Origin: a bacterium
GTDB lineage: Bacteria > UBP14 > UBA6098 > JAFGQG01
Assembly (NCBI GenBank): GCA_016935765.1
Contig: JAFGQG010000057.1
Location: forward strand, 7,704-71,703
Length of the DNA stretch: 64,000 nt
Direction: 5' to 3'
This document shows positions 13,701 through 32,763 of the stretch, piece after piece (position 1 is the stretch's first letter; every line of letters begins with the position of its first letter). The position numbers were made by a program, and so were the translations under genes. Under the pieces are notes generated by a model that was not told the origin of the DNA, did no database searches, and was given only the letters and a program-made list of their open reading frames with translations.

Positions 13701-15118
13701 GCTCGGTTTTTATTTCATATTGCGGGGCAGCAGAGACGTTCATTATGGATGAATCCCCGTTTGAATGGGTCGTTCCGAACATCTCCTGCGACTCCGCCAG
13801 TTTCAGTGTGGTTGCAAGAGATTCGTTCTGCAATTGGGGAGAGGACCTATGCTATTTCAATATCGCCATGGGCGGCACACTTCATCTCGCACTCCCCGAT
13901 ACTGTCGGCTTGCCCGGGGATACGCTTAGGCTGCCTCTTATGTACAGCATCAACCAGGAGCGCTCTACCTCCCACTTCGAATGCGCCATATCATTCGACC
14001 CGGTCATTATGAGCGTGAATGATCTCCACACAGCCGGCAGCATCATGGATACGTGGACTTCGGTCGATCTGGACACCGGTACTGAAGGCTTAGCTGTTGT
14101 CTCTGGCAGTGGTTCGTTCACGGTAGAAGATACACTCCTGTGTTTCCTGGAGATAGTCATTCCCGCCACGGCTCCTGAAGGCGGTTTTACACCACTAGCG
14201 TTCGATTCAGCAGGCTTCTCCGATATGTTACTGCCCATAATCACCGATGACGGATTTTTGATTGTGCTGTTCCCCCCCCTTGAATGGCTGTTCGACCTCG
14301 TTTTGGATGGGGACGATTACCCCTTGAACACGACTCTTACCATCGGGCTAAGTTATTTCGGATCAGAAGGTTACGACCCGGGGCTGGACATCATCCACCT
14401 GCCCGATCCACTCAGTACCCCTGCCTGGTTAATACTCGATGACTCGCTGTATCCTTACATCACTGCCCTCCAGAGGGACGTTCGGGACGTTGTGGGAATA
14501 CCATTATGCTGGAGTATCCTTACTTCCAAGGGATCAGGGTGGCTTACCTGGAATCCCGAGCTACTCCCGCCCGGCGATTTCATGCTCAACGGAAGGGTAG
14601 ATATGAGAAGCGTGGACAGGTACCACTATCGAACTAACGAGACAATCGTGATCTGCTTCACCAGACCCAGACCCGTTACTTATACCTACCACTTCGAAGT
14701 CGGGTGGAACATGATCTCCTTTCCAGTGCTCCCGGTCTATGGCGATATAAACCATATATTCCCCAGCACTGAAGGGGACGCGTACTGGTACGATCCCGAA
14801 TCCAGGAGCTACGAGAGTACAACACTGCCCGAGAGAGCCAAGGGTTTCTGGGTGTATTCATCCGGGGAAACGGAGACGCGGATAGCTGGAATAATGATAG
14901 AGCAATACAGCTTGAGCGTATTCGAGGGCTGGAACATGATAGGTTCCGTTATGGATATTGTTCCTTTTGACGGAATATCATTCGATCCCCCAGCTTCATT
15001 CATTCCGCCTCAATACACTTTTAGTTCGGGTGGTTACGTTCCCAGCTCTGAGATAGTGCCGGCTTTGGGATACTGGTGTCTTTCCACCGGCAATTCGGTT
15101 ATTCAGGTTTCACCCTGA
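10709..15118 (+). CDS. Giant (1469 aa) modular secreted surface protein: duplicated N-terminal modules, cohesin-like domain, shared GWNM C-terminal module
   Basis: AGGAG upstream and a signal peptide. Module A (IDSVWFREETDC...SDDGGATW...APGEHCF) recurs at about aa 455 (IDSLWFWEETDC...SSDNGATW...APGEHCF). Cys-rich module B (ISCPAG...DPCSISISYCGEIETYTIDD...ARDSFCN) recurs at about aa 970. A cohesin-like segment lies at about aa 1060-1190. The C-terminal GWNMISFP...GFWVYSS...EGWNMIGS...GYWCLS matches the tail of the 8097..10040 protein. Confidence 0.8.
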   Translation: MFMFKKAIFFVIILYFYTFSQAASIDSVWFREETDCNDSNIVTICYILSGDASDIDIRVSDDGGATWTVALTTLSGEDGDLGCGVAPGEHCFNWIMSEDLPGREGSDWVVEVSAFDLLDTFAIVDSTDISFSDRYGHGLGYGDGFYWVYDYTRGYVYQTSTLDEFTRDSIVDSFYIGSVNNCDISYCDSNIYFGRHGGEPDTLFRYDLRADSIEILFIAPDVSWNLQAVECNGSEVYASADIPGGEIQWVFEIDMSSLPSTRVDTILGLPRTDDCLAMDGDAFINGYLWSNNNNGKIVKVDIDLGEFVGCYEGNRPGTGTEGLCWDGEYLWSHDYARDYIYKIMIYDSIINVTSDMGPLDSRSPEITISCPAGPVVTGDVATFSWHVDDIFWVNDPCSISISYCGEIETYTIDDTFFEWTVPATECEDGYFIVAARDSFCNKTQGICMFEIENAYIPSSIDSLWFWEETDCDGINMVNICYLLTGDNADIFIDMSSDNGATWEVPLLNLFGAEGDTGESVAPGEHCFQWLMSTDLPDVENCGFQVRLSTDTGQFEYWLPYVINYTSCSSGTGSRIYVRGIYDSTQVEFDFDHDEVIDTTLYLDVYEAVAFSIPQIEMGTHIITDKPVEAYYTYHCSNHGLYEDGTLSYSLYPASMAGTDYAVPPADYTTILSIEDEAIVAIDTNYSGTLDLFFVLDKGEDTTFSSFTSPVHIYTENNKRIVVANAFHSGHHYSNTAAYNLLPTNLLGETYYAPMQHHYTLTVVSLHSRVEVIAVEPGTNININGTPYTPAVGELISFLTEDEVSVTADKPVVAVHISDVYATDPWSTHEDRHYMYAFCLFPKDELARRYVIPPVGELYSHGFPVRQYAIVSFTDGSSIDMDILDDGTIDTTFYLDAGEFVYLHEGDYPPFASSFASMESSSPFQVTYSHRGWWSSRSETCEGMIYNSKALPSAIIASGCLDSHPPEVETHCFAETVFAYDTVLFDWEISDMFEIDDPCSVFISYCGAAETFIMDESPFEWVVPNISCDSASFSVVARDSFCNWGEDLCYFNIAMGGTLHLALPDTVGLPGDTLRLPLMYSINQERSTSHFECAISFDPVIMSVNDLHTAGSIMDTWTSVDLDTGTEGLAVVSGSGSFTVEDTLLCFLEIVIPATAPEGGFTPLAFDSAGFSDMLLPIITDDGFLIVLFPPLEWLFDLVLDGDDYPLNTTLTIGLSYFGSEGYDPGLDIIHLPDPLSTPAWLILDDSLYPYITALQRDVRDVVGIPLCWSILTSKGSGWLTWNPELLPPGDFMLNGRVDMRSVDRYHYRTNETIVICFTRPRPVTYTYHFEVGWNMISFPVLPVYGDINHIFPSTEGDAYWYDPESRSYESTTLPERAKGFWVYSSGETETRIAGIMIEQYSLSVFEGWNMIGSVMDIVPFDGISFDPPASFIPPQYTFSSGGYVPSSEIVPALGYWCLSTGNSVIQVSP

Positions 15119-15208: not shown

Positions 15209-17503
15209 TTATTTATCCCAGAATACACCGTCGCCTTTCTGGGGATCGTTGCGGTCACCGGTTCGTATGGATCGGTTATTGTACCTGGCGCTGCCGGCGT
15301 TGTAGTAATTATCCTTGTTCCCACCGAGATCGATGAATACACCGAGGTTTTTTCCCCCGTCGCCGGGGTGGTAATCTGTAGCTCCGCCCTCTCCGTTTGA
15401 TGTGCCGTCTGATTTATAAGTATCCTTGCCATCCATATCAATAAAAACTCCCATCGCGACCTGCGACGCTCCACCCTGGGAGATGTTCGCGCCGGTGTAG
15501 TTGTCGTCGCCGGCGTCATCTATGAACCAGCCTGAGACGATATCCCAGACCCCGCCCTGGTTTGTGGCTTCGTGACCGGTATAGATGTCATTACCGGCGT
15601 GATCCCTGAAGTACCCAACCGCCTGGTGCGCGCCGCTGCCCATCGTATAGCGGTTCCCGGTTACGATATCATCGCCTGAGAGGTCATCGAAGATACCCAT
15701 GCCGAAGAAGTAGCCGCAGGCGAGCGAGAAGTTACCCGCATCGTATCGATCGTTTCCACCTCTGTCGCAGAGGAGTCCGATCCCGCCTGCCGCGAGTGTT
15801 CGAAAACCGATACCCGCGCCCTGGCTCCAGCCGTCCCACGTGTCCTCATTGCCATACCCGTTTGGTGATTTGAATGCGGCAACGTACTCGTCATCGCCCG
15901 TCGCGTCCACCAGCATCCCCAATCCCTTTGGAACTCCCACTCCCTGGGCGTACCTCGCGCCGTGATAGAGATCGTTGCCATTCCCATCGTAAAGGAGGGA
16001 AGCTCCAAACGCCGCGAAACCCTGGACAGCCTCATCTCCCGTGTAACGGTCGTCTCCATCGTGGTCGATGAGAATCCCCACCCCGCAAAACGCGGCAGCT
16101 TGAGAAAGGCGGTTCCCACGGTAAATATCGTTGCCCTCCATGTCTATGAGACAACCAGCTCCGCAATAGCCGCTGCCTATACTCCCGGGAGTGTTCCTGA
16201 TGTAGGTGTCATTCCCCGCAAGGTCAATATGAAGCCCTGCCCTGCCTTCTTTATACTTGTGATTTACATTATCCACGATAGTATAGGGTGTCCCCCCACA
16301 GTAACCGAGGTAGGTGTCATCCCCGCCCAGGTCGATCCATATCGCCGCCTGCTCGGTATATGTCATGCTCCCTGTTCCGGAGACTATCAAGCGCCCCATC
16401 AGGTCAACATTGTAACCGGAAGCGTTAACAGCTTTCCCGATTCGAACCATTTTATCTATCAGAATATCCTTCTCTTCATCCGCGCCTTCTCCCTGCTGGA
16501 TTTCCAGCAAATTTTTTATTGTAACAGGATTATATAATTTTGTCAAGACAAATCCACTTCTCAATAAACTCGTATAATCTATCTTCCTGGTGTTGTTTAT
16601 AAATTCGTTGTAGCTTTCAACCAGGTCCTCATCAGGGTCTGAATGTATGTAGATGGTTTGCGCGAAAATATCCAGCAGGAAGGGGATGATGTCCGACATC
16701 TCATCAAGCTGCTCATCAGTTAGCCCTATGAACGCCTTGTCGATAAGCTGGTTAGCGGCATATACTCCGTCAATTACCTTGTCCAGGTCGATGATGGTCG
16801 AATCCCGGGCAGGAGCAGGGGAGAGCATGCTGTCAGCATCGAGCGCGAAGGGAACGCCTCGCCAGATATCTTCGGGATTCCCAGTCGATACACTCAGGGT
16901 GGTTTTTACCCATTCACCGGAAGCAAAACAGCTTAATGGCTCCAGCAAAGGTAGAGCAATAGCGTTCAGTGTATAGAATCCCCTGTAATTTTCCACTTCC
17001 TTTCGAAACACCTTTCTCATATTTATGTATTCATTATTTAATTTTGCCTCTGTTATTGCGTTAAGGACCAGTTTGGTGGTCGAGTCCCTATCCCAATCCA
17101 GCATGATATCTTCGGGTACTTGCGGAAAACCGGTGCGGTCTCCGAGTTTCATGATACCCTGGTAATCATCGCGCGTGCCCAATATCATGTATTTGGACAG
17201 TTCCTTGCCGCATCTTTGAAGGGAGAGTTTCAAGCGGTTCCCCGGGGATTTGGTCTTAAGGTAAGCCAGCAGGGAGTCCCTCGATGGTATGGGTATTTCA
17301 TTAACAGCGGTAATGATATCCCCTTCCAGCAGTCCAGCGATCTCGGCGGGAGAGTTTCTGACGACGTTATCCACCTTGAACCCGGGCGGCTCTTCATTCG
17401 TGCTGAGTGTGATACCCATGAAAGCGGTGTTTTCGTACTCCTGGGCGATGCCTATGGTAAGCAGTGTTATTATTAATAACCAAATAAAACCCAGCGATCT
17501 CAT
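15209..17503 (-). CDS. Secreted PDZ-domain protein with a C-terminal ~24-aa tandem repeat tail (GNDxY motifs)
   Basis: Signal peptide, then a PDZ fold (FKVDNVVRNSPAEIAGLLEGDIITAVNEIPI). The C-terminal ~320 aa are 10 or more tandem units of the form (L/F)IDxxGNDxYxGxxxAQGxGxxxGxG. Confidence 0.75.
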   Translation of the reverse strand: MRSLGFIWLLIITLLTIGIAQEYENTAFMGITLSTNEEPPGFKVDNVVRNSPAEIAGLLEGDIITAVNEIPIPSRDSLLAYLKTKSPGNRLKLSLQRCGKELSKYMILGTRDDYQGIMKLGDRTGFPQVPEDIMLDWDRDSTTKLVLNAITEAKLNNEYINMRKVFRKEVENYRGFYTLNAIALPLLEPLSCFASGEWVKTTLSVSTGNPEDIWRGVPFALDADSMLSPAPARDSTIIDLDKVIDGVYAANQLIDKAFIGLTDEQLDEMSDIIPFLLDIFAQTIYIHSDPDEDLVESYNEFINNTRKIDYTSLLRSGFVLTKLYNPVTIKNLLEIQQGEGADEEKDILIDKMVRIGKAVNASGYNVDLMGRLIVSGTGSMTYTEQAAIWIDLGGDDTYLGYCGGTPYTIVDNVNHKYKEGRAGLHIDLAGNDTYIRNTPGSIGSGYCGAGCLIDMEGNDIYRGNRLSQAAAFCGVGILIDHDGDDRYTGDEAVQGFAAFGASLLYDGNGNDLYHGARYAQGVGVPKGLGMLVDATGDDEYVAAFKSPNGYGNEDTWDGWSQGAGIGFRTLAAGGIGLLCDRGGNDRYDAGNFSLACGYFFGMGIFDDLSGDDIVTGNRYTMGSGAHQAVGYFRDHAGNDIYTGHEATNQGGVWDIVSGWFIDDAGDDNYTGANISQGGASQVAMGVFIDMDGKDTYKSDGTSNGEGGATDYHPGDGGKNLGVFIDLGGNKDNYYNAGSARYNNRSIRTGDRNDPQKGDGVFWDK

Positions 17504-21816: not shown

Positions 21817-23142
21817 TTAATGAAAGAATATTTTTATTACTGCATAATTTAAAATGATTGCTACAACAGCAATAATCAAACCTGCTCTACGCAGGTACTT
21901 AGAATTTATCATACCTGAACTATAAGCAATGGCATTCGGTGGAGTGGAAACAGGAAGGCTCATAGCACAGGAAGCCATTAATGCGATCATGAGCGTAAGC
22001 GAGAAAACATTAACTCCAACTGCAATTGCCAGTGGAATCAATATATTAGTTGCTGCTGTATTACTCATAAAAGTGGACATAACAATAGATATTAATCCGA
22101 TTATAAGTATTAGGACAGAAATAGACATTGATTTAAATCTGAGCATATCCATTAACCAAGTGGATAAGCCACTTGATTGCATTGCTATACCCAAAGCAAT
22201 ACCACCTGACATGAGAACCAGAACATCCCATCCAATATTTTTAAAGTCATCAACATTCAGGATTCCTGAAGCCATAAATACCATGGGTGGAATAAGTGCT
22301 ATCATAGCTGAAGGAATTTTGTGCAAAGTTGTTGTTAACCATAGCAATACTGTAAGTATTACAGTTCCTAAAATTAGATAATGTTTATTTTTTAATACAG
22401 TTTTTTCCAGTTTAACTTCTATTTGTTTTATTTGTGGGGGGAATAAAACCAGCAGCAACCACCATATAAATATAGTGAGAACTAAAGCTATTGGCATCCC
22501 CCACGTAACCCATTTTAAAAATGAGATATCAATACCTGCGTTAGCCAAGGACTGAATAGCAATAGCATTCGGTGGGGTTCCAATAGGAGTTCCTATACCC
22601 CCAACGTTCGCAGCGAATGGAATACCCAAAATTAGAGCAATACTGAAAGGATCCTCTTTAAAATCTCTAACCACGGGCAAAATAGCAGCTACCATCAATG
22701 TAGTTGTAGCTGTATTTGACATCCACATTGATAAGAATGCAGTAGTAAGCATAATACCACCCAAGACCGAGCGTGGAGAATTACCTATTTTATTCAGTAT
22801 TGATCTTGCAATTACAGTATCAAGTTTATATTTCTGAAGAGCTGTCGCAAGGAAAAATCCCCCAGCGAACAATACTATTGTTGGGTTCGCAAAGGCAGCC
22901 AGGAAATGAGAATATTTAACTCCTTCAGTAACCGGGGGAATTAAGAAAGCTAGCATTGCTACTACTATTCCACCAGTGGCAGAAATTGGAATTACTTCAG
23001 TAGTCCAGCATAAAATTGCAAAAACAAACACCGCAAGCGTTCTCTGTCCAGAAGAGCTTAAATCCTTTATGGGTATGAATATAAATAAAGCTGATACGAA
23101 AATTAATATGATAAAAATTATCGTGTTTTTACGGTTTATCAT
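21817..23142 (-). CDS. DASS/SLC13-family (divalent anion:Na+ symporter-like) transporter
   Basis: Polytopic membrane protein with the duplicated SNTATT / SNTAAT hairpin signature motifs (MSNTATTTLM, MSNTAATNIL) and GTPPNAIA. Confidence 0.8.
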   Translation of the reverse strand: MINRKNTIIFIILIFVSALFIFIPIKDLSSSGQRTLAVFVFAILCWTTEVIPISATGGIVVAMLAFLIPPVTEGVKYSHFLAAFANPTIVLFAGGFFLATALQKYKLDTVIARSILNKIGNSPRSVLGGIMLTTAFLSMWMSNTATTTLMVAAILPVVRDFKEDPFSIALILGIPFAANVGGIGTPIGTPPNAIAIQSLANAGIDISFLKWVTWGMPIALVLTIFIWWLLLVLFPPQIKQIEVKLEKTVLKNKHYLILGTVILTVLLWLTTTLHKIPSAMIALIPPMVFMASGILNVDDFKNIGWDVLVLMSGGIALGIAMQSSGLSTWLMDMLRFKSMSISVLILIIGLISIVMSTFMSNTAATNILIPLAIAVGVNVFSLTLMIALMASCAMSLPVSTPPNAIAYSSGMINSKYLRRAGLIIAVVAIILNYAVIKIFFH

Positions 23143-23266
23143 AATACCTTCTCAATATATAGAAAAATCAAATATGTATGGAGGTTTCCATGAGTCAACT
23201 TTTTTATTTTAGTATTTTCAAAGAAAACAATAAAACTATCTACACACTAAAACCCTATTTTATTTT

Positions 23267-23803
23267 CAGGCAGCAGTTGATGCAATTCCCGCTACTCTGG
23301 CAGACATTTATGTCATCGAGGTTCAAGATGACAGTACTTATAATGAAGGGATAAATATTTTTAAAGAGAATACCCATCCCCCTCTCTTTTATTCGACTAC
23401 GCCTGACAGCGAGGATTTACACCTGTTGTCTGAATATGGAAGATGGAACCCTGTAACCGAAATATGGGAGAATGACTCCGTATCTTCACCCTGTATCGAC
23501 ATGGGATTCGGAGGACCGGTAAATGAACCTTTCCCCAATGGCGGGATCATAAACCAGGGCGCTTATGGAAATACAGCGGAAGCTTCCAGGTCAGGATATG
23601 GCGATACAAATATAGTTGCTATAAATATAGAGAACACTGACTGTAACTTCGAGGTTTCCTATCGTGGAGAAACGGTAGTATCAGCCGATTCGCAGGAGAT
23701 AATAATCGAGAACATCGGGACTTTACCTAATAATTATAATATTATTCTACCTTTTATTATCCAGAATGCTTTTTGCTTAATAATATTGACTAAATTGTAT
23801 TGA
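23267..23803 (+). pseudogene. Collapsed remnant of the downstream giant repeat gene (N-terminal and C-terminal ends fused, no start or signal peptide)
   Basis: The frame is open from 23234 with no ATG/GTG/TTG before 23426. QAAVDAIPATLADIYVIEVQDDSTY matches aa ~48-72 of the giant protein. It then jumps to PPLFYSTTPDSEDLHLLSEYGRWNP...SPCIDMGFGGPVNEPFPNGGIINQGAYGNTAEASRSGYGDTNIVAINIENTDCNFEVSYRGETVVSADSQEIIIENIGTLP, which matches the last repeat plus the C-terminal tail of the giant protein. Confidence 0.55.
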
Positions 23804-23871
23804 ACAATTATTTTCAATTTAAGCTAAAAAAATAAATTAAGATATGTAAAAATACATAGAAAAGAGGGAAA

Positions 23872-26800
23872 ATGATCTTTAAAAGCGAAATTCGTGTATT
23901 TCTATCGTTATCATTTTTAGTCTCCATCCTGTCATTCGCTATTCTTAATGCATCCCCTACCACGATACCAACTTATATAATCAAAAAGGATGGTACGGGA
24001 AGCTTCACCACTATTCAAGCAGCAGTAGATGCACTCCCTACAGTTCTGGCAGGTAATTATGTTATCGAGGTTCAGGACGATAGCACATATTATGAACAGG
24101 TGGATATTCGTAAGGATAACAACAATGATATTTATTCACTAACCATTCGGGCAGGGGATGGTTTTCAACCTACAATTAATGGCGATGATTATGGGTTCTA
24201 CATAAAACCCGACTCAACCAGCAATCTAAAAAATGTAACCATTAGCGGTTTTAATATTACTTCCTGCAACATTAATGGTTTTTTTGCCACCCGTAACGGT
24301 GCTGATGGTGAGGTTTTGAATCTTACGATCACAAACTGTATCATTCATGGAACTGCCTCCGAAGGTATTAAACTGGAATACGCTGATGATTTTCTAATGC
24401 GAAATAGTATTTTATACGATGCGGGTGGAGATTATGGGGTACACTTTAACCACTGTGATGGTAATCCCCGGTTCATAAATAACACCGTATATACATTAAG
24501 CACTACATATTCCCTTTACCAGGTTTATGGCAGCCTTACTTTAATGAACAACATCATCTGCAATACCAGTGATGATCAATACGATTATGGTTTTCGTATG
24601 TTGAGTGGTACTACTTATTCATACAACAATTATTTCTGTAGTAAATATTCTTTCGTTAATGGATCATATAATGCATTAGGTCGTGGTGACCGCGAAGCCG
24701 ACCTTGATGATGACCCTCCACTTTTTTACTCAACCGCCCCGGACAGCGAGGATTTTCATTTAAAGTCCGAGTATGGGCGATGGGAGCCAGAGGCGAAGGG
24801 CTGGCAAATTGATGCGACCACTTCTCCATGTATCGACATGGGTCTGGGTGACCCTATTGATGAGGTTGCTCCCAACGGAAACATCATCAACCAGGGCGCT
24901 TATGGTGGAACTGACCAGGCGTCAAAATCAGGTCCCGCGAGAGTATATGTCACAAAGGGCTCCGGCGCATTTGGGAACTTCGGCGCTTATGCAATGATAA
25001 ATGGCGCAGTTGCTGCTATACCTGACACTCTCGATACCAGCTACACAGTAACTGTATGCTCCGATGAACCCTATAGGGAAGAAGTAAAAGTGTTTAAACA
25101 CAATCCCTCCGATAGCGGTTATTCCCTTACAATCGAGGCATCTGATACCAATAACCCGGTGATCGAAGCAGAAGAAAATGGGTTTTACCTTAAACCTATC
25201 AATAGTACTGATGACATGTCAAACGTCACTATCGATGGTTTCGAGATCGCGCCTTGCCACAGAAGCGAGTCTATCACCAGTAGAAGTATATTGGCTGAGA
25301 ATAACGGAGCTGGGATCGAGGTTATAAACCTCACTGTCCAAAATTGTATTATCCATGGTTCCAATAATGAAGGTATCAAACTAGAATACGCAGATGATTT
25401 CCTGGTGCGAAATAACGCTGTTTATGACGCAGGAGGCGATTATGGAATACATTTTCATCAATGTGATGGTAATTCCCGATTTATCAATAACACCGTATAT
25501 ACTTATAGCACTATTAACTCTGTTTACCAGGCTTACGGCTACCTCACATTAATGAACAATATCATCTGCAACACCAGCGATGATCAATATGATTATGGTT
25601 TTCGTATGTCGAGTGGTTTTACTTACTCATGCAACAATTATTTCTGTAGTAAATATTCCTTGTCGAACGGATCAGATAACAACCTGGGTTTCGGCGACCG
25701 TGAAGCTGACCTTGATGATGACCCTCCGCTTTTCTATTCCACGACTCCAGGGAGTGAAGACTTCCATTTAATGTCCGAATATGGGCGCTGGGATTCCGAG
25801 GCGAAGGGGTGGCAAAATGACGGGGTTACTTCACCTTGTATAGACATGGGTTTGGGTGAACCTGTCGATGAGTTTGCTCCTAGCGGAAACATAATCAACC
25901 AGGGCGCTTATGGCGGAACGAACCAAGCGTCAAAATCCGGACCAACGAGAGTGTATGTAACTAAAGGCTCCGGAGCGTTCGGGAACCTCGGCGCTTACAC
26001 CCAGATAAGCGCTGCGGTCAATGCCATACCTGATACTCTAGATACCTCATACACAGTCACTGTCTGCTCAAATGGTCCGTTTAAACAAGAAGTTTATATA
26101 ATAAAACACAATCCACCTGATAGCGGTTATACTCTGACGATAGAGGCATCAGATACGAATAAGCCGGTTATTGAAGCTGAAAAACGCGGGTTTTACCTCA
26201 AACCCTACAATGATACAGCTGATCTGGCAAATATCACAATCGATGGCTTCGAGATAAGCCCCTGTCATAGGAGCACTTCTATTACCAGGAGGGGCATATT
26301 TGCTGAGAAAAACACTGATTGGATAGGAGTTATTAACCTCACAATTAAAAATTGTATTATTCATGGTACCAATAATGATGGTATTATATTAGAATACGCT
26401 GATGATTTCATGATGCAAAACAATATCATTTACGATACAGGTAGCAATTATGGGATTCACTTGTTTGTTTGTCATGGTAGCCCCGAATTTATTAATAACA
26501 CCGTTTACACCAACAGCATAAGTGCCGCTGTTTACTCGAACGGTGGCTCCCTTACCTTGAGGAACAACATTATTTGCAACTTGAACACCGGTCAATACTC
26601 TTATGGTTTCAACTATTCCTCTACTACCCTCCAAACATCCTACACCTACTTTTGCAGTAAGTATGCGCGTTCAAACGGCTCTAATGCTGTATTAGGTCGG
26701 TGTGACCGCGAAGCTGACCTTGATGATGATCCACCACTTTTCTATTCAACTACTCCGGGTAACGAAGATTTCCATTTAAAATCGGAGTATGGACGTTGGA

Positions 26801-29800
26801 ATCCGGCAACTACAAGCTGGGAGTTGGATGCTGTTACTTCACCCTGTATAGACATGGGTTTTAGAGCTCCGGTGAACGAACCATTACCCAACGGGGGGGT
26901 TATCAACCAGGGTGGATTCGGGGGTACGGAACAGGCATCAAAATCGGATTCCGGAAGGGTGTATGTTACAATAGGATCGGGAGTGTTTGGAAATTACGGT
27001 ATCTACACAACAATAAATGGCGCAATTGCAGCTATACCAGATTCCTTGGACAGCAGCTACACCGTTACCGTTTGCTCCGATGGACCCTACCGTGAAGAGA
27101 TTGATGTGTTAAAACTAAATCCTTCCGAAAACGGTTATTCTCTCACAATCGAGGCTTCTGACACTAATAATCCTGTAATAGAAGCTGAAATATATGGCTT
27201 TTACCTTAAACCATACAGCAGTAGCAGTGACCTGGCAAATGTAACTATCGACGGTTTCGAGATTAAACCTTGCCAAAGAAGCGCTTCCGTTACAAGCAGG
27301 GGCATACTAGCTCAAAAAGATAGCGACGGTATCGAGGTAATAAACCTTACTATTCAAAATTGTGTTATTCATGGTATCAGTAACGAAGGAATAAGACTCG
27401 AGTATTCCGATGATTATCTTATTAGAAACTGCCTTGTATATAATTCGGGAACCGATTATGCGGTATATTTGACTTATTGTGAAGGCGATCCAATATTTAT
27501 CAATAATACTGTATATTCAGGTAATTCATTTTGTGCCGTTTATAAGCATTATGGCTCTCTAAATCTAATGAACAATATTATTTGCAATACCAGCGATGAT
27601 TTATATGATTATGGTTTTAGAATAGCAGGCAACATTCCACAATCTTCAAACAACTATTTCTGCGCTAAGTATGCGTTAGATCATGGTTCGGACATTGCAT
27701 TGGGTTGTGGCGATCGTGAGGCTGACCTCGACGATGACCCGCCGCTTTTCTATTCTATTACTCCGGACAGCGAGGATTTTCATTTAATGTCCCAGTATGG
27801 GCGCTGGAATCCGGCAACCATAAGCTGGGAATATGATGCTGTCACTTCACCATGCCTCGATATGGGATTTGGCGCGCCAGTGAACGAACCGTTACCCAAT
27901 GGGGGTATAATCAACCAGGGCTTCTATGGCGGTACAGACCAGGCATCAAAATCTGGATCAGCTCGAGTATATGTAACTAAGGGCTCCGGCGCCTTCGGGA
28001 ATTTCGGCGCATACACCCAGATCAGCGGAGCTGTCAATGCAATTCCGGACTCTCTCGACAGCAACTATACCATAACCGTATGTTCCGATGGACCATATCG
28101 CGAGGAAGTGAATATATTTAAACTCAATCCTGCTTCGAACGGATATGACCTGGTCATAGAAGCCTCGGACACAAACAAACCGGTAATTGAAGCTGAAAAA
28201 TACGGTTTTTACCTTAAGCCTTATAATAATACCAATGACCTTGCCAATGTAATAATTTCAGGTTTGGAAATTAAACCCTGTCATCGAAATCCCGCTATTA
28301 CTAACAAAGGTATCTTCACCGAAAGGAACGATGCTGAAAATCATGTTTTAAACCTGACCGTTGAAAATTGCGTTATTCATGGCATTACAAATGAAGGGAT
28401 AAGGTTGGAATATGCAGACGGATTCCTTGTGCAAAATTGCCTCGTCTATAACTGTGGAACTGCATACGGTGTATATTTTTACTATTGCGATGATGATCCG
28501 CATTTTATGAATAGCACCGTTTATACTAACAGCAACCAGTATTCAGTGATCAGCTATTACTCTGATCTCATTTTGCGTAATAATATCATTTGTAACACGA
28601 GTGAAATTGCCGGTGATTATGGTTTTTACGTTTCTGGTGTTACCGTAGAATCATCATACAATTATTACTGCAGTAAATATTCATTGAGCAATGGTTCATA
28701 CGTGGGTATTGGTCGTGGCGACAGGGAAGCTCACCTTGATGATGACCCTCCGCTTTTCTACTCCACCACTCCGGACAGCGAGGACTTTCATTTGATATCG
28801 GAGTATGGAAGGTGGAATCCAATCACCGAAACCTGGGAACTTGATGCTGTTACTTCCCCCTGTATTGACATGGGTTTTGGCGCGCCGCTAAACGAGCCCT
28901 TACCCAATGGCGGTATTATTAACCAGGGATTCTATGGAGGGACTGACCAGGCGTCGAAATCCGGACCTGCAAGAGTATATGTAACCAGGGGGGCCGGGGC
29001 ATTTGGGAATTACGGCGCATACACCCAGATCAACGGCGCAGTCAACGCCATACCCGATTCCCTCGATACCAGCTATGCCGTAAGCGTGTGCTCCGATGGA
29101 CCATTCCGGCAGGAAGTAAACGTGTTCAAATTAAATCCAGCATCTAACGGATATAACCTTATTATAGAAGCATCGGATACTAATAAACCGGTGATTGAAG
29201 CCGAAGCTCATGGTTTTTACCTTCAACCTTATAATAATACCAATGATCTGGCTAATGTCACCATAGACGGATTTGAGATAGCTCCCTGCCAAAGGGATGC
29301 TTCTATAACCAGCAGAGGTATATTTACACAGCGAAATGATAGTGATAATGAAGTCATAAACCTTACTATTGAAAATTGTATTATCCACGGAAGCAGATAT
29401 GAAGGGATAAAGCTCGAGTACTCAGATAACTTCCAGATTAAAAATTCCCTCATATATAGCTGCGGGACTGATTACGGCGTATTCTTCTACTATTGTGATG
29501 GAGACTGTCGATTTGTTAATAACACCGTATATACTTATAGTACAATTAACACTCTTTGCCAAAACTATGGTAACTTAACATTATTGAATAATATTATTTG
29601 CAACACAAGCGATAATGCTGGGGATTATGGTTTTAACAATCCTAGCGGTATTACGAGCTCATCGTATAATTATTTCTGCAGCAAGTATTCATTGAGCAGC
29701 GCTTCACTTGTTGCTCTTGGGCGCGGCGACAAGGAAGCTTACCTTGAAGAAGACCCGCCACTTTTCTATTCCACTACACCGGACAGTGAGGATTTTCATT

Positions 29801-32448
29801 TGATGTCGGAGTATGGAAGGTGGAATCCGATCAGCGAAAGCTGGGAATTCGACGCAGCATCTTCCCCTTGTATCGACATGGGATTTGGAGGACCTGTTTT
29901 GGAACCATTTCCCAATGGAGGCATCATTAACCAGGGCTGTTATGGCGGCACTGACCAGGCATCGAAATCCGGACCGGCAAGGATATATGTAACAAAGGGC
30001 TCCGGGGCGTTCGGGAACTACGGCACATTTACCCAGATCAGTGGAGCGGTCAACGCTATCCCGGACTCTCTCGACAGCAGCTATACTGTAACTGTGTGCT
30101 CTGGTGGACCATTTCAGCAAGAAGTCAAGGTGTTCAAATTAAATCCAGCCTCTAACGGATATAGCCTTATTATAGAAGCATCGGATACTAATAAACCGGT
30201 GATTGAAGCCGAAGCTTATGGTTTTTACTTGAAATCTTATAAAAACACTAACGACCTCGCGAATGTCACTATCGATGGTTTCGAGATAGTACCCTGTCAA
30301 AGAGACCCTAACATAACCAGCAGAGGTATATTTACACAGCGAAATGATAGTGATAATGAAGTCATAAACCTTACCATTAGAAACTGTATTATTCATGGTA
30401 CTATTAATGAAGGGATAAAACTCGAGTACTCAGATGCCTTCGTCGCTCAGAGTAATTTAGTATATAACTGCGGCACGGATTACGGTATATATTTCTACTA
30501 CTGTGACGGAGACTGCAAATTCGCCAATAACACCGTATATACTAATAGCGCTATCAACTCTCTTTGTCAATTCTATGGTACTTTAACCATATGGAATAAT
30601 ATAATTTGCAATTGCAGTGATTTTGATAACGATTATGCCTTTAACAACCCGGGCGGCGCTACTACTACCTCGTATAATTACTACTGCTGCAAATATAGCC
30701 TCGAAGATGCGCTCGGTTATCCTTCTACCGGGCGGGGTGACCGGGAAGCCGACCTTGATGATGACCCGCCACTGTTTTATTCAACCACACCTGGTAGTGA
30801 GGATTTCCATTTGATGTCCGAGTACGGACGTTGGGATCCGGAAGCAAAGGGCTGGGAAATTGATGTTGTTACTTCACCATGCATTGACATGGGTTTTGGA
30901 GCACCAATGAATGAACCATTGCCTAATGGGAACATCATTAACCAGGGATTCTATGGCGGTACCGACCAGGCATCGAAATCCGGTCCATCTAGGGTATATG
31001 TAACCAGGGACTCTGGCGCTTTCGGGAACTTCGGCGCATACACTCAAATAAGCGGTGCAGTCAACGCCATCCAGGATTCCCTAGACAGCAGCTACACCGT
31101 AACCGTTTGCTCTGATGGACCTTACAGGGAAGAAGTAAAAGTGTTCAAATTAAATCCCGCTTCCAATGGATATAATCTCGTTATAGAGGCTTCGGATACA
31201 AATAAACCGGTGATCGAAGCGGAGGTTTACGGTTTTTACTTGAAATCTTATAAGAACACCAACGACCTCGCGAATGTCACTATCGATGGGTTCGAGATAG
31301 TACCATGTCAGAGAAGCGCTGATATTTCAAGTATGGGTATCTTTACACAGGAAAACGGGGATGAAAATGAAGTGATAAACCTGACTCTTGAAAATTGTGT
31401 TACTCATGGAATAAAAAACGAGGGCATTAAACTCGAATATGCAGATGACTTCCTTGTCCAAAATTGTCTGGTCTATGACTGTGGAGACAACTACGCTGTT
31501 ACCTTTTATGGCTGTGATGGAGATTGCCGGTTTATCAATAATACTGTATATTCAGACAATTCCATTTACACAGTAAATCAAGGTTACGGCAATTTAAATT
31601 TACGTAACAATATTATCTGTAATACTAGTGATATCATCGGAGATTATGGTTTCAGAGTATCAAGTGGTGTAGCAACTCCATCATTTAATTATTTTTGCAG
31701 CGCTTATAGTGCTGATCAGGGTTCTTACGGTGCTTTAGGCACCGGGGATACTGAAGTTGATCTCCACCTTGCCCCGCCTCTGTTTGTGAATACAGCAACT
31801 GATTCGGAAAATTTCCATTTGCAGTCGATGTTCGGGCATTGGGATACCGAAACCGGGGTCTGGCTTTTTGACACGCTCACTTCTCCATGCATCGATGCCG
31901 GAGATCCGGCAGACCCGTACGCAAACGAAACCGAAGATAATGGAAACAGGATTAACCAGGGCGCTTACGGCAATACGGTTGAAGCCTCGAAATCCGGATT
32001 CGGTGACACGAATATCGTAGCCATATTGATAGAAACCACGGACTGCAACTTTGAGATAACTTATAGAGGCCAAACAGTTGTATCCGCTGATTCACAGAAG
32101 ATCGAGATAATAAACATCGGCACTCTACCCATAGACATCGGGATGTTCTGCGACAGTGTACCCGGTTATGCGCTCGCGGACACTTATGAAATCGGCTATT
32201 ATGGTCTGTGGGGCTTACTCAATGATTCAGATTTTGCACCTGCCAAACACGATTTTACAAATAACCACCTTTTCTCCTACATCTTGCAATGGGCGGATTC
32301 AACCATCTTCGGACCGGGTGGCAGGAACATCCCGATCGCCGGGGATAACCAGGAGAACCTGTGGTTCCGATTCGATGCGCCGTATTATTACGCACCGCAC
32401 AACATTGAGATAAAGGTTACCGTCCAGGCGAGGGAGCACCTGCCGTAG
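23872..32448 (+). CDS. Giant (2858 aa) secreted protein of eight tandem ~335-aa parallel beta-helix cassettes, each ending in a choice-of-anchor-Q-like SPCID segment
   Basis: GGGAAA upstream and a signal peptide (MIFKSEIRVFLSLSFLVSILSFAILNA). Each unit is VYVTKGSGAFGN...AIPDSLD.SYTVTVCSDGPYREEV, then N-ladder PbH1 coils (NLTIxNCIIHG, INNTVYT, ICNTSD), then GDREADLDDDPPLFYSTTPDSEDFHL.SEYGRWNP...SPCIDMGFG...NQGAYGGTDQASKSG. The last unit carries the canonical SPCIDAGDPADP. Confidence 0.85.
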   Translation: MIFKSEIRVFLSLSFLVSILSFAILNASPTTIPTYIIKKDGTGSFTTIQAAVDALPTVLAGNYVIEVQDDSTYYEQVDIRKDNNNDIYSLTIRAGDGFQPTINGDDYGFYIKPDSTSNLKNVTISGFNITSCNINGFFATRNGADGEVLNLTITNCIIHGTASEGIKLEYADDFLMRNSILYDAGGDYGVHFNHCDGNPRFINNTVYTLSTTYSLYQVYGSLTLMNNIICNTSDDQYDYGFRMLSGTTYSYNNYFCSKYSFVNGSYNALGRGDREADLDDDPPLFYSTAPDSEDFHLKSEYGRWEPEAKGWQIDATTSPCIDMGLGDPIDEVAPNGNIINQGAYGGTDQASKSGPARVYVTKGSGAFGNFGAYAMINGAVAAIPDTLDTSYTVTVCSDEPYREEVKVFKHNPSDSGYSLTIEASDTNNPVIEAEENGFYLKPINSTDDMSNVTIDGFEIAPCHRSESITSRSILAENNGAGIEVINLTVQNCIIHGSNNEGIKLEYADDFLVRNNAVYDAGGDYGIHFHQCDGNSRFINNTVYTYSTINSVYQAYGYLTLMNNIICNTSDDQYDYGFRMSSGFTYSCNNYFCSKYSLSNGSDNNLGFGDREADLDDDPPLFYSTTPGSEDFHLMSEYGRWDSEAKGWQNDGVTSPCIDMGLGEPVDEFAPSGNIINQGAYGGTNQASKSGPTRVYVTKGSGAFGNLGAYTQISAAVNAIPDTLDTSYTVTVCSNGPFKQEVYIIKHNPPDSGYTLTIEASDTNKPVIEAEKRGFYLKPYNDTADLANITIDGFEISPCHRSTSITRRGIFAEKNTDWIGVINLTIKNCIIHGTNNDGIILEYADDFMMQNNIIYDTGSNYGIHLFVCHGSPEFINNTVYTNSISAAVYSNGGSLTLRNNIICNLNTGQYSYGFNYSSTTLQTSYTYFCSKYARSNGSNAVLGRCDREADLDDDPPLFYSTTPGNEDFHLKSEYGRWNPATTSWELDAVTSPCIDMGFRAPVNEPLPNGGVINQGGFGGTEQASKSDSGRVYVTIGSGVFGNYGIYTTINGAIAAIPDSLDSSYTVTVCSDGPYREEIDVLKLNPSENGYSLTIEASDTNNPVIEAEIYGFYLKPYSSSSDLANVTIDGFEIKPCQRSASVTSRGILAQKDSDGIEVINLTIQNCVIHGISNEGIRLEYSDDYLIRNCLVYNSGTDYAVYLTYCEGDPIFINNTVYSGNSFCAVYKHYGSLNLMNNIICNTSDDLYDYGFRIAGNIPQSSNNYFCAKYALDHGSDIALGCGDREADLDDDPPLFYSITPDSEDFHLMSQYGRWNPATISWEYDAVTSPCLDMGFGAPVNEPLPNGGIINQGFYGGTDQASKSGSARVYVTKGSGAFGNFGAYTQISGAVNAIPDSLDSNYTITVCSDGPYREEVNIFKLNPASNGYDLVIEASDTNKPVIEAEKYGFYLKPYNNTNDLANVIISGLEIKPCHRNPAITNKGIFTERNDAENHVLNLTVENCVIHGITNEGIRLEYADGFLVQNCLVYNCGTAYGVYFYYCDDDPHFMNSTVYTNSNQYSVISYYSDLILRNNIICNTSEIAGDYGFYVSGVTVESSYNYYCSKYSLSNGSYVGIGRGDREAHLDDDPPLFYSTTPDSEDFHLISEYGRWNPITETWELDAVTSPCIDMGFGAPLNEPLPNGGIINQGFYGGTDQASKSGPARVYVTRGAGAFGNYGAYTQINGAVNAIPDSLDTSYAVSVCSDGPFRQEVNVFKLNPASNGYNLIIEASDTNKPVIEAEAHGFYLQPYNNTNDLANVTIDGFEIAPCQRDASITSRGIFTQRNDSDNEVINLTIENCIIHGSRYEGIKLEYSDNFQIKNSLIYSCGTDYGVFFYYCDGDCRFVNNTVYTYSTINTLCQNYGNLTLLNNIICNTSDNAGDYGFNNPSGITSSSYNYFCSKYSLSSASLVALGRGDKEAYLEEDPPLFYSTTPDSEDFHLMSEYGRWNPISESWEFDAASSPCIDMGFGGPVLEPFPNGGIINQGCYGGTDQASKSGPARIYVTKGSGAFGNYGTFTQISGAVNAIPDSLDSSYTVTVCSGGPFQQEVKVFKLNPASNGYSLIIEASDTNKPVIEAEAYGFYLKSYKNTNDLANVTIDGFEIVPCQRDPNITSRGIFTQRNDSDNEVINLTIRNCIIHGTINEGIKLEYSDAFVAQSNLVYNCGTDYGIYFYYCDGDCKFANNTVYTNSAINSLCQFYGTLTIWNNIICNCSDFDNDYAFNNPGGATTTSYNYYCCKYSLEDALGYPSTGRGDREADLDDDPPLFYSTTPGSEDFHLMSEYGRWDPEAKGWEIDVVTSPCIDMGFGAPMNEPLPNGNIINQGFYGGTDQASKSGPSRVYVTRDSGAFGNFGAYTQISGAVNAIQDSLDSSYTVTVCSDGPYREEVKVFKLNPASNGYNLVIEASDTNKPVIEAEVYGFYLKSYKNTNDLANVTIDGFEIVPCQRSADISSMGIFTQENGDENEVINLTLENCVTHGIKNEGIKLEYADDFLVQNCLVYDCGDNYAVTFYGCDGDCRFINNTVYSDNSIYTVNQGYGNLNLRNNIICNTSDIIGDYGFRVSSGVATPSFNYFCSAYSADQGSYGALGTGDTEVDLHLAPPLFVNTATDSENFHLQSMFGHWDTETGVWLFDTLTSPCIDAGDPADPYANETEDNGNRINQGAYGNTVEASKSGFGDTNIVAILIETTDCNFEITYRGQTVVSADSQKIEIINIGTLPIDIGMFCDSVPGYALADTYEIGYYGLWGLLNDSDFAPAKHDFTNNHLFSYILQWADSTIFGPGGRNIPIAGDNQENLWFRFDAPYYYAPHNIEIKVTVQAREHLP
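23940..31995 (+). repeat. Eight in-frame tandem repeats, period ~1008 bp (units begin near 23940, 24940, 25948, 26947, 27961, 28969, 29974 and 30985)
   Basis: The VYVT(K/R/I)G codon block recurs at ~1-kb spacing. Units 6 and 7 share identical 40-nt stretches, for example acacagcgaaatgatagtgataatgaagtcataaacctta at 29326 and 30334. The first and last units are the most diverged. Confidence 0.85.
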
Positions 32449-32686
32449 AGGGAAAAATTGATTTATGAATAACGCCTGTCCCGATTTATCGGGGAGTAAC
32501 GAATGAAGATTTAAGAAGTATAACAACTTAAGGTAGAATGAAGTCTAAACCATTGTAGATGGTTGATTATTGTAGAAAAAGCAAAACCAACTTCATTATT
32601 ATCATCCTTGTATAGGATGAATAAAATTGGGGATATCCAATTAGGTAGGATATTTAACACTATTCGAGTTTATCAATAGTTGAAGC

Positions 32687-32715
32687 TTGACAGGGGTGGT
32701 AATGGGACTTATATT
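32687..32715 (+). promoter_or_regulatory. Putative sigma70-like promoter for the MNT/HEPN pair (TTGACA, 17 nt, TATATT)
   Basis: TTGACA at 32687-32692 and TATATT at 32710-32715, about 48 nt upstream of the ATG at 32764. Confidence 0.3.
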
Positions 32716-32763
32716 AATTATGGTATTGCCAAAAAACTAGGGAAGTGCTAAAAGGATTCCAGT

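What the first reader, a model, noticed from the sequence alone, without database searches (positions are those of the whole stretch)
23267..23803. Collapsed start-less remnant of the giant gene immediately upstream (N-terminus fused to C-terminus)
The frame upstream of the giant gene encodes QAAVDAIPATLADIYVIEVQDDSTY, which matches the start of cassette 1. It then goes directly into PPLFYSTTPDSEDLHL...SPCIDMGFG...NQGAYGNTAEASRSGYGDTNIVAINIENTDCNFEVSYRGETVVSADSQEIIIENIGTLP, which matches the end of the last cassette plus the unique C-terminal region. It therefore looks like a deletion product that lost all internal cassettes. It has no start codon or signal peptide for the homologous N-terminal part. 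Either it is a fossil of repeat-mediated collapse, or it is a silent donor cassette that could recombine with the expressed gene.
Basis: seen in the sequence. Interest (0 to 1): 0.6.

Follow-up and report, generated by a model that had tools for sequence, protein, structure and literature searches.

The report
Recently truncated remnant of a second giant-gene copy
The 460-base stretch just upstream of the 2858-residue repeat gene is a real, start-less leftover of a second, long-diverged copy of that gene that was cut down by deletions only recently; it is an ordinary gene remnant, not a working switch.

Summary
The fragment is real. Window 23265-23728 is an island of coding-like composition (44% GC) inside an AT-rich (18-24% GC) intergenic region. 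It consists of three in-frame pieces homologous to the neighbouring giant beta-helix repeat gene (23872-32448).

- Piece A matches the cassette-1 N-terminus.
- Piece B1 is a 'PPLF...INQG' module.
- Piece B2 matches the last-cassette tail plus the first 44 residues of the unique C-terminal domain.

There is no usable start codon for the whole reading frame.

The fragment is about 25% diverged from the giant gene, but 82 of the 122 differences fall at third codon positions (pN/pS 0.16, synonymous sites saturated). Its branch shows no excess of amino-acid change, and it carries no stop, frameshift or indel. It therefore evolved as a translated gene for nearly all of its history and was disabled only recently.

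My best reading is a young deletion remnant of an old, once-functional multi-cassette paralogue or displaced allele. The data argue against a neutral fossil of the extant gene, an assembly chimera, a DGR template and an active silent donor (longest shared exact tract is 17 bp). Interest is low.

The parts
23143..23264 (.). AT-rich flank (24% GC) between the divergent CitMHS/Na-symporter gene (21817-23142, minus strand) and the fragment. It has no significant similarity to the giant gene's 5' region.
   Evidence: Local alignment against 23781-24013 scores no better than shuffles (204/500 reach it). Protein-level tests are not significant. GC figure. Pfam assignment of the transporter.
23231..23233 (+). 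In-frame TAA that closes the fragment's reading frame on the 5' side. No ATG/GTG/TTG lies between it and TTG 23426.
   Evidence: Translations; ORF list.
23267..23371 (+). Piece A: 35 codons (QAAVDAIP...NIFKEN) homologous to the N-terminal cap of cassette 1 of the giant gene (aa 49-83, nt 24016-24120). It is of first-cassette type (IEVQDDSTY).
   Evidence: 73.6% nt identity. 60% aa identity to the giant and 66% to the first cassette of L001. pN/pS 0.28, the same as giant vs L001 at 0.23.
23372..23377 (+). Two-codon linker (Thr-His) at the non-homologous, in-frame junction between piece A and the PPLF module. About 205 residues of beta-helix rungs per cassette, and all intervening cassettes, are missing here.
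   Evidence: Codon-by-codon comparison. Structure map of a cassette (rungs are residues ~45-247 of the model).
23378..23560 (+). Piece B1: 61 codons (PPLFYSTTPDSEDLHL...SPCIDMGFGGPVNEPFPNGGIINQG). This is the Disaggr_assoc-type module that ends a cassette. It is of internal-cassette type and closest to cassette 6 (nt 29755-29937).
   Evidence: 77.0% nt / 85% aa identity to cassette 6, 53% nt / 49% aa to cassette 8. Bootstrap support: with internal cassettes 87-92%, with cassette 6 43-82%, with cassette 8 0%. pN 0.087, pS 0.75. Weak Pfam PF08480 hit.
23561..23728 (+). Piece B2: 56 codons (AYGNTAEASRSGYGDTNIVAINIENTDCNFEVSYRGETVVSADSQEIIIENIGTLP) homologous to the tail of the last cassette plus the first ~44 residues of the unique ~158-residue C-terminal domain (giant aa 2698-2753, nt 31963-32130). 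The crossover from internal type to terminal type lies in or next to the 17-bp tract 23552-23568.
   Evidence: 69-72% nt and ~80% aa identity to cassette 8/C-terminus. pN/pS 0.15. Exact 17-mer AACCAGGGCGCTTATGG.
23729..23803 (+). Non-homologous 24-codon tail plus TGA. At 18% GC it is intergenic-like sequence that happens to stay open. The remaining ~105 residues of the C-terminal domain are missing.
   Evidence: No similarity to 32130-32760. GC figure.
23426..23803 (+). The ORF as annotated in the public record: 125 aa, TTG start, 'hypothetical protein JXI42_04725', MBN2542148.1. A second gene caller starts it at ATG 23501 (100 aa).
23872..32448 (+). The intact neighbouring gene: 2858 aa, with a signal-peptide-like N-terminus, 8 cassettes of 336-337 aa (right-handed beta-helix plus PPLF module) and a unique C-terminal domain. 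Public record: MBN2542149.1.

Best explanation
The fragment is a non-functional remnant (pseudogene) of a second homologue of the giant beta-helix repeat gene. That homologue once lay between the transporter gene and the present giant gene. It was either an old tandem paralogue or a resident allele displaced by an incoming one.

The homologue was itself multi-cassette. It had a first-cassette-type N-terminus, a cassette whose end is sister to present cassette 6, and the same C-terminal domain. It was translated and under purifying selection for almost the whole time in which it diverged by about 25% from the surviving gene.

Recently it was reduced by deletions:
1. Loss of the 5' end, including the start codon and signal peptide.
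2. An illegitimate but in-frame deletion from just after the N-terminal cap of cassette 1 to the PPLF module of a late cassette.
3. An in-register deletion between that internal PPLF module and the terminal one, within the conserved INQGAYG-coding tract.
4. Loss of the distal two thirds of the C-terminal domain.

Shown directly: the three-part homology, the codon-position pattern, the absence of a start codon, the sharp compositional boundaries, and reproducibility in a second assembly.

Inferred: that the parent was functional, that it had several cassettes, the order and recency of the deletions, and that the remnant now does nothing.
For: Evidence for purifying selection:
- 122 differences over 152 aligned codons fall 23/17/82 by codon position (binomial p = 2e-14 against equal thirds).
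- pN 0.12, pS 0.77, ratio 0.16.
- The same values are seen between functional cassettes of the giant gene (pN/pS 0.13-0.23).
- There is no excess of first/second-position or amino-acid change on the fragment's branch: 7 vs 11 changes with the L001 outgroup, p = 0.48.

Evidence for recent disabling:
- No stop, frameshift or indel in 154 codons, although 4.4% of possible substitutions would create a stop. P(open frame) is 0.13 after 10% neutral divergence and 0.007 after 25%.
- GC 44% and GC3 41% equal the giant gene's values (43% / 42%), while the flanks are 18-24% GC.

Evidence on origin:
- Piece B1 nests among this genome's internal cassettes (87-92% bootstrap) and next to cassette 6. It shares GFGGP, EPFP and SSPC with cassette 6 only.
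- The fragment's C-terminal piece is ~80% aa identical to the giant's. In the only related genome (L001, a Guaymas MAG; 49% aa over the whole 158-residue domain) the same stretch is far more diverged: fragment residues 37-151 are 47% identical to L001, against 63% to the giant for residues 38-154. The parent therefore arose within this lineage.
- L001 has a 4-cassette orthologue with nothing upstream.

Other support:
- No intact second copy is present in the window or among public proteins.
- The fragment lacks all beta-helix rungs and two thirds of the C-terminal domain, so it cannot adopt the parental fold.
- A Logan contig from SRR13394437 is 100% identical over window 23134-29186.
Against: - No relative carrying an intact upstream copy was found. 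The existence of the parent gene is inferred only from the substitution pattern.
- Four deletions with no point decay is a somewhat special history. Deletional bias in bacteria makes it plausible, but I did not test this here.
- A perfectly open 179-codon frame is also what a selected element (a silent cassette or a translated small protein) would show.
- PGAP and a second gene caller both call an ORF here.
- The sample is small (152 codons, one outgroup), and synonymous sites are saturated, so timing is only semi-quantitative.
- The genome is a single-sample MAG, so population data are lacking.
Confidence: 0.65

Rival explanations
1. Translated small protein. The open frame, or part of it, is expressed and functional. 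Candidate forms are the annotated 125-aa TTG ORF at 23426, the 100-aa ATG ORF at 23501, or a fusion reached by a -1 shift from the 58-aa ORF that starts behind a strong GGAGG Shine-Dalgarno at 23178/23190.
For: - The frame is open for 179 codons with a purifying-selection signature.
- Two gene callers predict an ORF.
- GGAGG-N5-ATG at 23180-23192 occurs in only 2.6% of shuffles of the intergenic region.
- Short natural homologues exist elsewhere in which an N-cap lies close to a PPLF-like module, e.g. P0067 (239 aa, with a signal peptide, seen on 14 contigs).
Against: - The selection signature is equally strong upstream of TTG 23426 and ATG 23501 (piece A pN/pS 0.28, the same as between functional orthologues). 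That part cannot be translated from those starts.
- An in-frame TAA at 23231 blocks any upstream start.
- I saw no canonical slippery heptamer by eye in 23234-23352. I ran no systematic scan.
- There is no signal peptide, although the parent is an exported repeat protein.
- The conserved positions are those of the full-length fold, yet the beta-helix core and most of the C-terminal domain are absent.
- The ORF's last 24 codons are 18% GC intergenic-like sequence.
Confidence: 0.12
2. Silent donor cassette. The promoter-less, start-less copy is kept open because segments of it are copied by gene conversion into the expressed giant gene to vary the surface protein, as with pilS/pilE, the vls cassettes, msp2 pseudogenes or MgPar.
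For: - It is start-less yet open and evolves under apparent protein-level constraint.
- It lies on the same strand immediately upstream of the expressed gene.
- The giant gene is a repetitive, presumably surface-exposed protein.
Against: - There is only one copy in 64 kb.
- The longest exact match to the giant gene is 17 bp, whereas cassettes within the gene share tracts of up to 62 bp.
- Identity is 69-77%. Borrelia vls silent cassettes are ~90% identical to the vlsE cassette region (abstract of PMC11499132).
- Two thirds of the differences are synonymous, so a donor would contribute almost no amino-acid variation.
- Synonymous saturation means no detectable recent exchange in either direction.
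- The fragment covers the conserved framework parts (cap, PPLF module), not variable surfaces.
- No analogous fragment lies next to the two other multi-cassette relatives examined (L001 and L004).
Confidence: 0.06
3. Old neutral fossil. The fragment is a direct repeat-mediated collapse of a duplicate of the present giant gene and has drifted neutrally ever since.
For: The three-part architecture and one in-register junction.
Against: - Neutral drift to 25% divergence would spread differences evenly over codon positions. Observed counts are 23/17/82 (p = 2e-14).
- Such drift would leave the frame open with probability ~0.007.
- There is no acceleration on the fragment's branch.
- Composition is still that of coding sequence.
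Confidence: 0.03
4. Assembly artefact. Either a chimeric join of reads from the giant gene, or a real second full-length gene collapsed by short-read assemblers.
For: The source is a short-read MAG of an organism seen in one run only. The Logan contig starts at 23134 and breaks inside the repeats at 29186.
Against: - The fragment differs from every part of the giant gene by 23-47%, so it cannot be built from that gene's reads.
- Two different assemblies give the identical sequence across all four breakpoints.
- The A|B1 junction and the two outer boundaries join non-homologous positions, which share no k-mer that could mislead a de Bruijn graph.
Confidence: 0.03

Closest known systems
Bacterial pseudogene / gene remnant left by deletional decay of a redundant paralogue or displaced allele (general knowledge: deletional bias and short lifetimes of bacterial pseudogenes)
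   Same: It is a truncated, start-less copy beside an intact homologue. It was reduced by several deletions and keeps the composition and codon-position signature of its formerly coding state.
   Different: It is unusually 'clean', with no stop or frameshift in 154 codons. Its pieces remain in one frame, which is why annotation pipelines call it a hypothetical protein.
Copy-number change by recombination in tandem-repeat surface proteins (e.g. streptococcal alpha C/Rib, staphylococcal Bap/SasG-type repeats; general knowledge)
   Same: One junction (internal PPLF module to terminal PPLF module, inside the conserved INQGAYG-coding tract) is an in-register deletion between repeat units. The orthologue in L001 has 4 cassettes against 8 here.
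   Different: Repeats here are old and only 57-78% identical at the nucleotide level. The other three breakpoints are not repeat-mediated. The product is not an expressed shorter variant but a dead stub.
Silent donor cassettes of gene-conversion antigenic variation systems (Neisseria pilS, Borrelia vls, Anaplasma msp2 pseudogenes, Mycoplasma genitalium MgPar)
   Same: It is a promoter-less, start-less, open partial copy lying close to the expressed gene on the same replicon.
   Different: It is a single copy at 69-77% identity with at most 17 bp of exact match. The differences are mainly synonymous, there is no evidence of exchange, and it covers conserved rather than variable parts. vls cassettes are ~90% identical to vlsE (PMC11499132).
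Right-handed parallel beta-helix proteins with a Disaggr_assoc (PF08480) C-terminal module. These are typically 450-550 aa single-cassette proteins of Planctomycetota and other phyla, and multi-cassette giants of 5000-6400 aa.
   Same: The fragment's B1 piece is this module: DxHL, GRW, SPCID, PNG..IN.G.YG motifs, with 45-60% aa identity to many database proteins.
   Different: The fragment has the module without any beta-helix rungs. Its C-terminal piece belongs to a domain found only in this gene and in L001.

Membership tests
Homologue of the neighbouring giant beta-helix repeat gene (sequence family) | Statistically significant, colinear sequence similarity to defined parts of the gene | tested here: met
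   E = 5e-46 and 4e-11 at protein level, and 1e-13 to 3e-38 at nucleotide level.
Pseudogene / non-functional remnant | Lacks elements required for expression of the homologous region (start codon, signal peptide) | tested here: met
   In-frame TAA at 23231. First in-frame starts are TTG 23426 and ATG 23501, inside the homology. There is no signal peptide.
Pseudogene / non-functional remnant | Lacks essential structural parts of the parental protein | tested here: met
   All beta-helix rungs (~205 residues per cassette) and ~105 of ~150 residues of the C-terminal domain are absent.
Pseudogene / non-functional remnant | Relaxed constraint (dN/dS approaching 1, stops, frameshifts) | tested here: not met
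   pN/pS 0.16, no stops or indels, and no branch acceleration. I read this as very recent inactivation, but it is the main reason the functional and silent-cassette rivals cannot be excluded.
Pseudogene / non-functional remnant | Not transcribed or translated | not testable with these tools
   No expression data are available. Consensus promoter and terminator scans were uninformative.
Silent donor cassette system (pilS / vls / msp2 / MgPar type) | Multiple partial copies (an archive) of the expressed gene | tested here: not met
   tblastn of the giant protein against the 64-kb window finds only this one fragment outside the gene. The rest of the genome was not available.
Silent donor cassette system (pilS / vls / msp2 / MgPar type) | High-identity segments shared with the expression site that can support recombination | tested here: not met
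   The longest exact match is 17 bp and overall identity is 69-77%.
Silent donor cassette system (pilS / vls / msp2 / MgPar type) | Donor differs from the expressed copy mainly by amino-acid-changing variation in variable regions | tested here: not met
   82 of 122 differences are at third codon positions. Amino-acid identity is 80-85% in conserved motifs.
Silent donor cassette system (pilS / vls / msp2 / MgPar type) | Observed segmental conversion into the expression site | not testable with these tools
   This needs population or long-read data from SRR13394437 or cultures.
Diversity-generating retroelement template repeat | Mismatches between template and target concentrated at adenines of the template | tested here: not met
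   The fragment base at mismatches is A 37, T 37, C 25, G 23. The giant-gene base at mismatches is A 31, T 34, C 32, G 25.
Disaggr_assoc (PF08480) module-containing proteins | Match to the Pfam model at or above the gathering threshold | tested here: not met
   The fragment scores 18.5 bits (E = 0.002) against a cut-off of 22.6. The corresponding region of the giant gene scores 29.2 bits. Homology of the fragment to the module is nevertheless clear from direct alignment.

The most novel reading that the evidence does not exclude
The fragment may be kept open by selection without being translated as such. It could be a silent donor whose pieces are occasionally copied into the giant surface-protein gene. 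Alternatively, it could be translated through an unconventional route starting at the strong GGAGG-ATG at 23180-23192 in another frame. The first option would be a first gene-conversion variation system for a giant beta-helix repeat protein in an uncultured environmental bacterium.
Probability: 0.07. Interest if true: 0.6.

Novelty: new member of a known kind. Interest (0 to 1): 0.2.

Why it matters
The finding matters mostly as a correction and a small case study.

- The public record annotates this stretch as a 125-aa hypothetical protein. It is better described as a remnant of a second copy of the adjacent giant gene.
- It records that the locus once held two long-diverged multi-cassette genes, and that such genes lose material both by in-register repeat recombination and by illegitimate deletion.
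- It illustrates that 'open frame plus low dN/dS' can mark a very young pseudogene rather than a gene.

If the unlikely silent-donor reading were true, it would extend cassette-based surface variation to a new protein class and to environmental bacteria.

Tried and rejected
- **Related loci.** A genome-contig scan with the C-terminal domain found a single relative (L001, a Guaymas MAG, 4 cassettes, no upstream fragment). A metagenome-contig scan returned only the same contig. No sister genome with an intact upstream copy could be found.
- **Protein searches.** The C-terminal query returned only distant single-cassette proteins. A cassette query with too strict an E-value cut-off returned nothing, so that search was wasted. 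The whole-gene query returned only the gene itself and distant relatives. The one retrievable multi-cassette relative (P0222, L004) has an unrelated 107-aa ORF upstream and no fragment.
- **Exact-protein look-ups.** Look-ups of the transporter and the giant gene found nothing. Look-ups of the small ORFs and HepT found only Logan contigs of the same run, SRR13394437, so no population or strain comparison was possible. A literature search for the run accession found nothing.
- **Extension of homology upstream (23143-23266) and downstream (23729-23871).** Not significant at the nucleotide level or protein level. The best result was an ungapped frame-0 alignment to the giant's first 37 residues, at p = 0.034 uncorrected over six tests. 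The short direct repeats D1 and D3 between the two upstream regions are not colinear and are probably chance matches in AT-rich DNA.
- **DGR template idea.** Rejected on the mismatch spectrum.
- **Other scans.** The Rfam scan of 22900-24100 found no match. Promoter and terminator consensus scans found no more sites than in shuffles.
- **AlphaFold.** The C-terminal domain was modelled with low confidence (pLDDT < 50), so it could not be assigned to a fold.

Full report
**Setting**

The window is part of a 77.8-kb contig of an unclassified bacterial MAG (locus tags JXI42_). The surrounding genes are housekeeping genes: ClpB, thioredoxin reductase and methylmalonyl-CoA mutase.

A CitMHS/Na-symporter-type transporter gene runs leftward from 23142. 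A 2858-residue gene runs rightward from 23872 to 32448. That gene has:
- a signal-peptide-like N-terminus;
- eight cassettes of 336-337 residues;
- a unique C-terminal region of about 158 residues.

Each cassette is a right-handed parallel beta-helix. AlphaFold gives pLDDT around 90 for residues 1-320 of the cassette 8 model. The nearest solved folds are the AlgE4 A-module, pectate lyase and PL6 lyases. Each cassette ends in a 'PPLF...DFHL...GRW...SPCID...PNG.IINQG.YGGT..ASKSG' module that matches Pfam Disaggr_assoc. The finding concerns the 729-bp space between the two genes.

**Check of the observation**

Similarity to the giant gene is far beyond chance: blastp E = 5e-46 and 4e-11, and blastn E down to 3e-38.

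Homology runs from about 23265 to 23728 and stops sharply on both sides. The flanks 23143-23264 and 23729-23871 align to the giant gene's 5' and 3' regions no better than shuffled sequence. The flanks have 18-24% GC, against 44% for the homologous island and 43% for the giant gene.

The frame is closed upstream by TAA at 23231-23233. The first in-frame start codons are TTG 23426 and ATG 23501, both inside the homologous part. PGAP annotates the TTG ORF as a 125-aa hypothetical protein (MBN2542148.1), and another gene caller uses the ATG.

The PPLF...INQG module of the fragment (23378-23560) does not match the last cassette.
- It is 77% nt / 85% aa identical to cassette 6 and 70-74% nt identical to cassettes 3-5.
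- It is 53% nt / 49% aa identical to cassette 8.
- It shares GFGGP, EPFP and SSPC with cassette 6 alone.
- In bootstrapped NJ trees it falls among this gene's internal cassettes in 87-92% of replicates, next to cassette 6 in 43-82%, and with cassette 8 in none.

The switch to last-cassette type occurs within or just after the conserved INQGAYG-coding tract. That tract contains one of the two longest exact matches to the gene (17 bp, 23552-23568).

The fragment therefore has three sources:
- the cassette-1 N-cap (23267-23371);
- an internal-type cassette end (23378-23560);
- the terminal tail plus the first 44 residues of the C-terminal domain (23561-23728).

**What the substitution pattern says**

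The fragment is 23-31% diverged at the nucleotide level from its best partners. Over 152 aligned codons the 122 differences fall 23, 17 and 82 at codon positions 1, 2 and 3 (p = 2e-14 against equal thirds).

Synonymous sites are saturated (pS 0.77), while pN is 0.12, giving a ratio of 0.16. This matches comparisons between functional cassettes of the giant gene (0.13-0.23). The pattern holds in all three pieces. It includes piece A and the part of B1 that lie upstream of any possible start codon: piece A gives 0.28, and the giant-vs-L001 comparison for the same segment gives 0.23.

Relative-rate counts show no excess of first/second-position or amino-acid change on the fragment's branch: 7 vs 11 with the L001 outgroup, p = 0.48.

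There is no stop, frameshift or indel, although 4.4% of possible single substitutions would create a stop. An open frame would survive 10% neutral divergence with probability 0.13, and 25% with probability 0.007.

The sequence therefore evolved as part of a translated, constrained protein for nearly all of its divergence. Whatever disabled it is recent. The conserved positions are those that matter in the full-length fold (N-cap strands, PPLF module motifs, first strands of the C-terminal domain). This argues, by inference, that selection acted on a full-length protein and not on the stub.

**Origin**

The only relative with the same N- and C-terminal regions in the searched collections is a 1474-residue, four-cassette protein in a Guaymas Basin MAG (L001 = L002). 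Its upstream intergenic space is 105 bp and holds no fragment.

The fragment's C-terminal piece is about 80% identical at the amino-acid level to the giant's. L001 is much more distant over the same stretch: fragment residues 37-151 are 47% identical to L001, against 63% to the giant for residues 38-154. Piece B1 also nests within this genome's internal cassettes. The parent gene therefore arose within this lineage, after the cassettes had diversified, as a duplicate or a diverged allele of a multi-cassette gene.

No intact second copy exists elsewhere in the window or among public proteins.

Of the four breakpoints, only the B1|B2 junction is in register between repeat units, as expected of repeat-mediated deletion. 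The A|B1 junction (FKEN-TH-PPLF) joins non-homologous positions and merely happens to be in frame. The two outer ends are simple truncations.

**Rivals**

- *Old neutral fossil of the present gene.* Contradicted by the codon-position pattern.
- *Assembly chimera built from the giant gene's reads.* Impossible at 23-47% divergence. In addition, a Logan contig of SRR13394437 is identical to window 23134-29186. A collapsed real second gene would need shared k-mers at non-homologous joins.
- *DGR template.* Excluded by the mismatch spectrum.
- *Silent donor cassette.* This would explain an open, constrained, start-less copy, but every specific expectation fails:
  - there is only a single copy;
  - the longest exact match is 17 bp, against up to 62 bp among cassettes inside the gene;
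  - identity is 69-77%, against about 90% for vls cassettes (PMC11499132);
  - the differences are mostly synonymous;
  - there is no sign of recent exchange;
  - no counterpart lies beside the other two multi-cassette relatives examined.
- *Translated small protein.* Not excluded, for three reasons:
  - gene callers predict it;
  - a strong GGAGG-N5-ATG sits at 23180-23192, heading a 58-codon ORF in another frame;
  - short natural relatives such as P0067 exist.

  Against it, the constrained region extends upstream of all usable starts, there is no signal peptide, and the ORF ends in intergenic-like sequence.

**Verdict**

The PPLF module should be re-assigned from the last cassette to an internal cassette.

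The most likely explanation (about 0.65) is a young deletion remnant of an old, formerly functional multi-cassette homologue of the neighbouring gene. It is not a fossil of that gene itself and not an active recombination donor.

This is a new instance of a familiar kind of object, and interest is low (0.2). The most novel reading still allowed is a selected silent donor or an unconventionally translated stub. I give it about 0.07.

Noticed in passing
window 23178-23354 (+): A 58-codon ORF in a different frame overlaps piece A of the fragment. Its internal ATG at 23190 is preceded by a strong Shine-Dalgarno (GGAGG, 5-nt spacer) in otherwise 24% GC sequence. Such a site appears in only 2.6% of shuffles of the intergenic region. 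It was called as a gene on the Logan contig. It could be a relic of the lost gene's translation start followed by a frameshift, or chance.
   Followed up: partly
window 23872-32448 (+); L001 5018-9442: The giant gene has 8 cassettes and its only orthologue (a Guaymas MAG) has 4. The cassettes are old: 57-78% nt identity, with synonymous sites near saturation between cassettes. Cassettes 6 and 7 nevertheless share a 62-bp exact tract, which suggests local gene conversion. The Logan assembly breaks at 29186, in cassette 6.
   Followed up: partly
window 31972-32445 (+): The ~158-residue C-terminal domain (IDIGMFCDS, FGPGGRNIP, LWFRFD, AREHLP motifs) has no detectable homologue in any searched collection except L001. 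It is not a Por_Secre_tail, and AlphaFold models it with pLDDT < 50. Its role (sorting signal or anchoring?) is unknown.
   Followed up: partly
protein ids P0071-P0105: Public data hold dozens of 5000-6400-residue proteins with 12-13 copies of the same beta-helix + PPLF cassette (~44% identity). Giant multi-cassette arrays of this module are therefore widespread, whereas typical family members are single-cassette proteins of 450-550 aa.
   Followed up: no
window 32764-33604 (+): A nucleotidyltransferase (Polbeta/MNT-like, 124 aa) and a HepT-like protein (159 aa) overlap by 14 bp immediately downstream of the giant gene. This is a type VII-like toxin-antitoxin pair. It is followed by a T9SS-sorted protein (Por_Secre_tail, 33653-34930) and a BNR/sortilin-repeat protein (35665-36594).
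   Followed up: no
window 10709-15118 (+) and 15209-17503 (-): Two large ORFs (1469 aa and 764 aa) have no NCBIfam match at E <= 1e-10. I did not examine them further.
   Followed up: no
window 23154-23166 vs 23851-23863; 23213-23238 vs 23809-23834: Short direct repeats (12/13 and 19/26 matches) link the AT-rich sequence upstream of the fragment with that upstream of the giant gene's start. They are not colinear with each other and are not significant against shuffles, so they are probably chance.
   Followed up: yes
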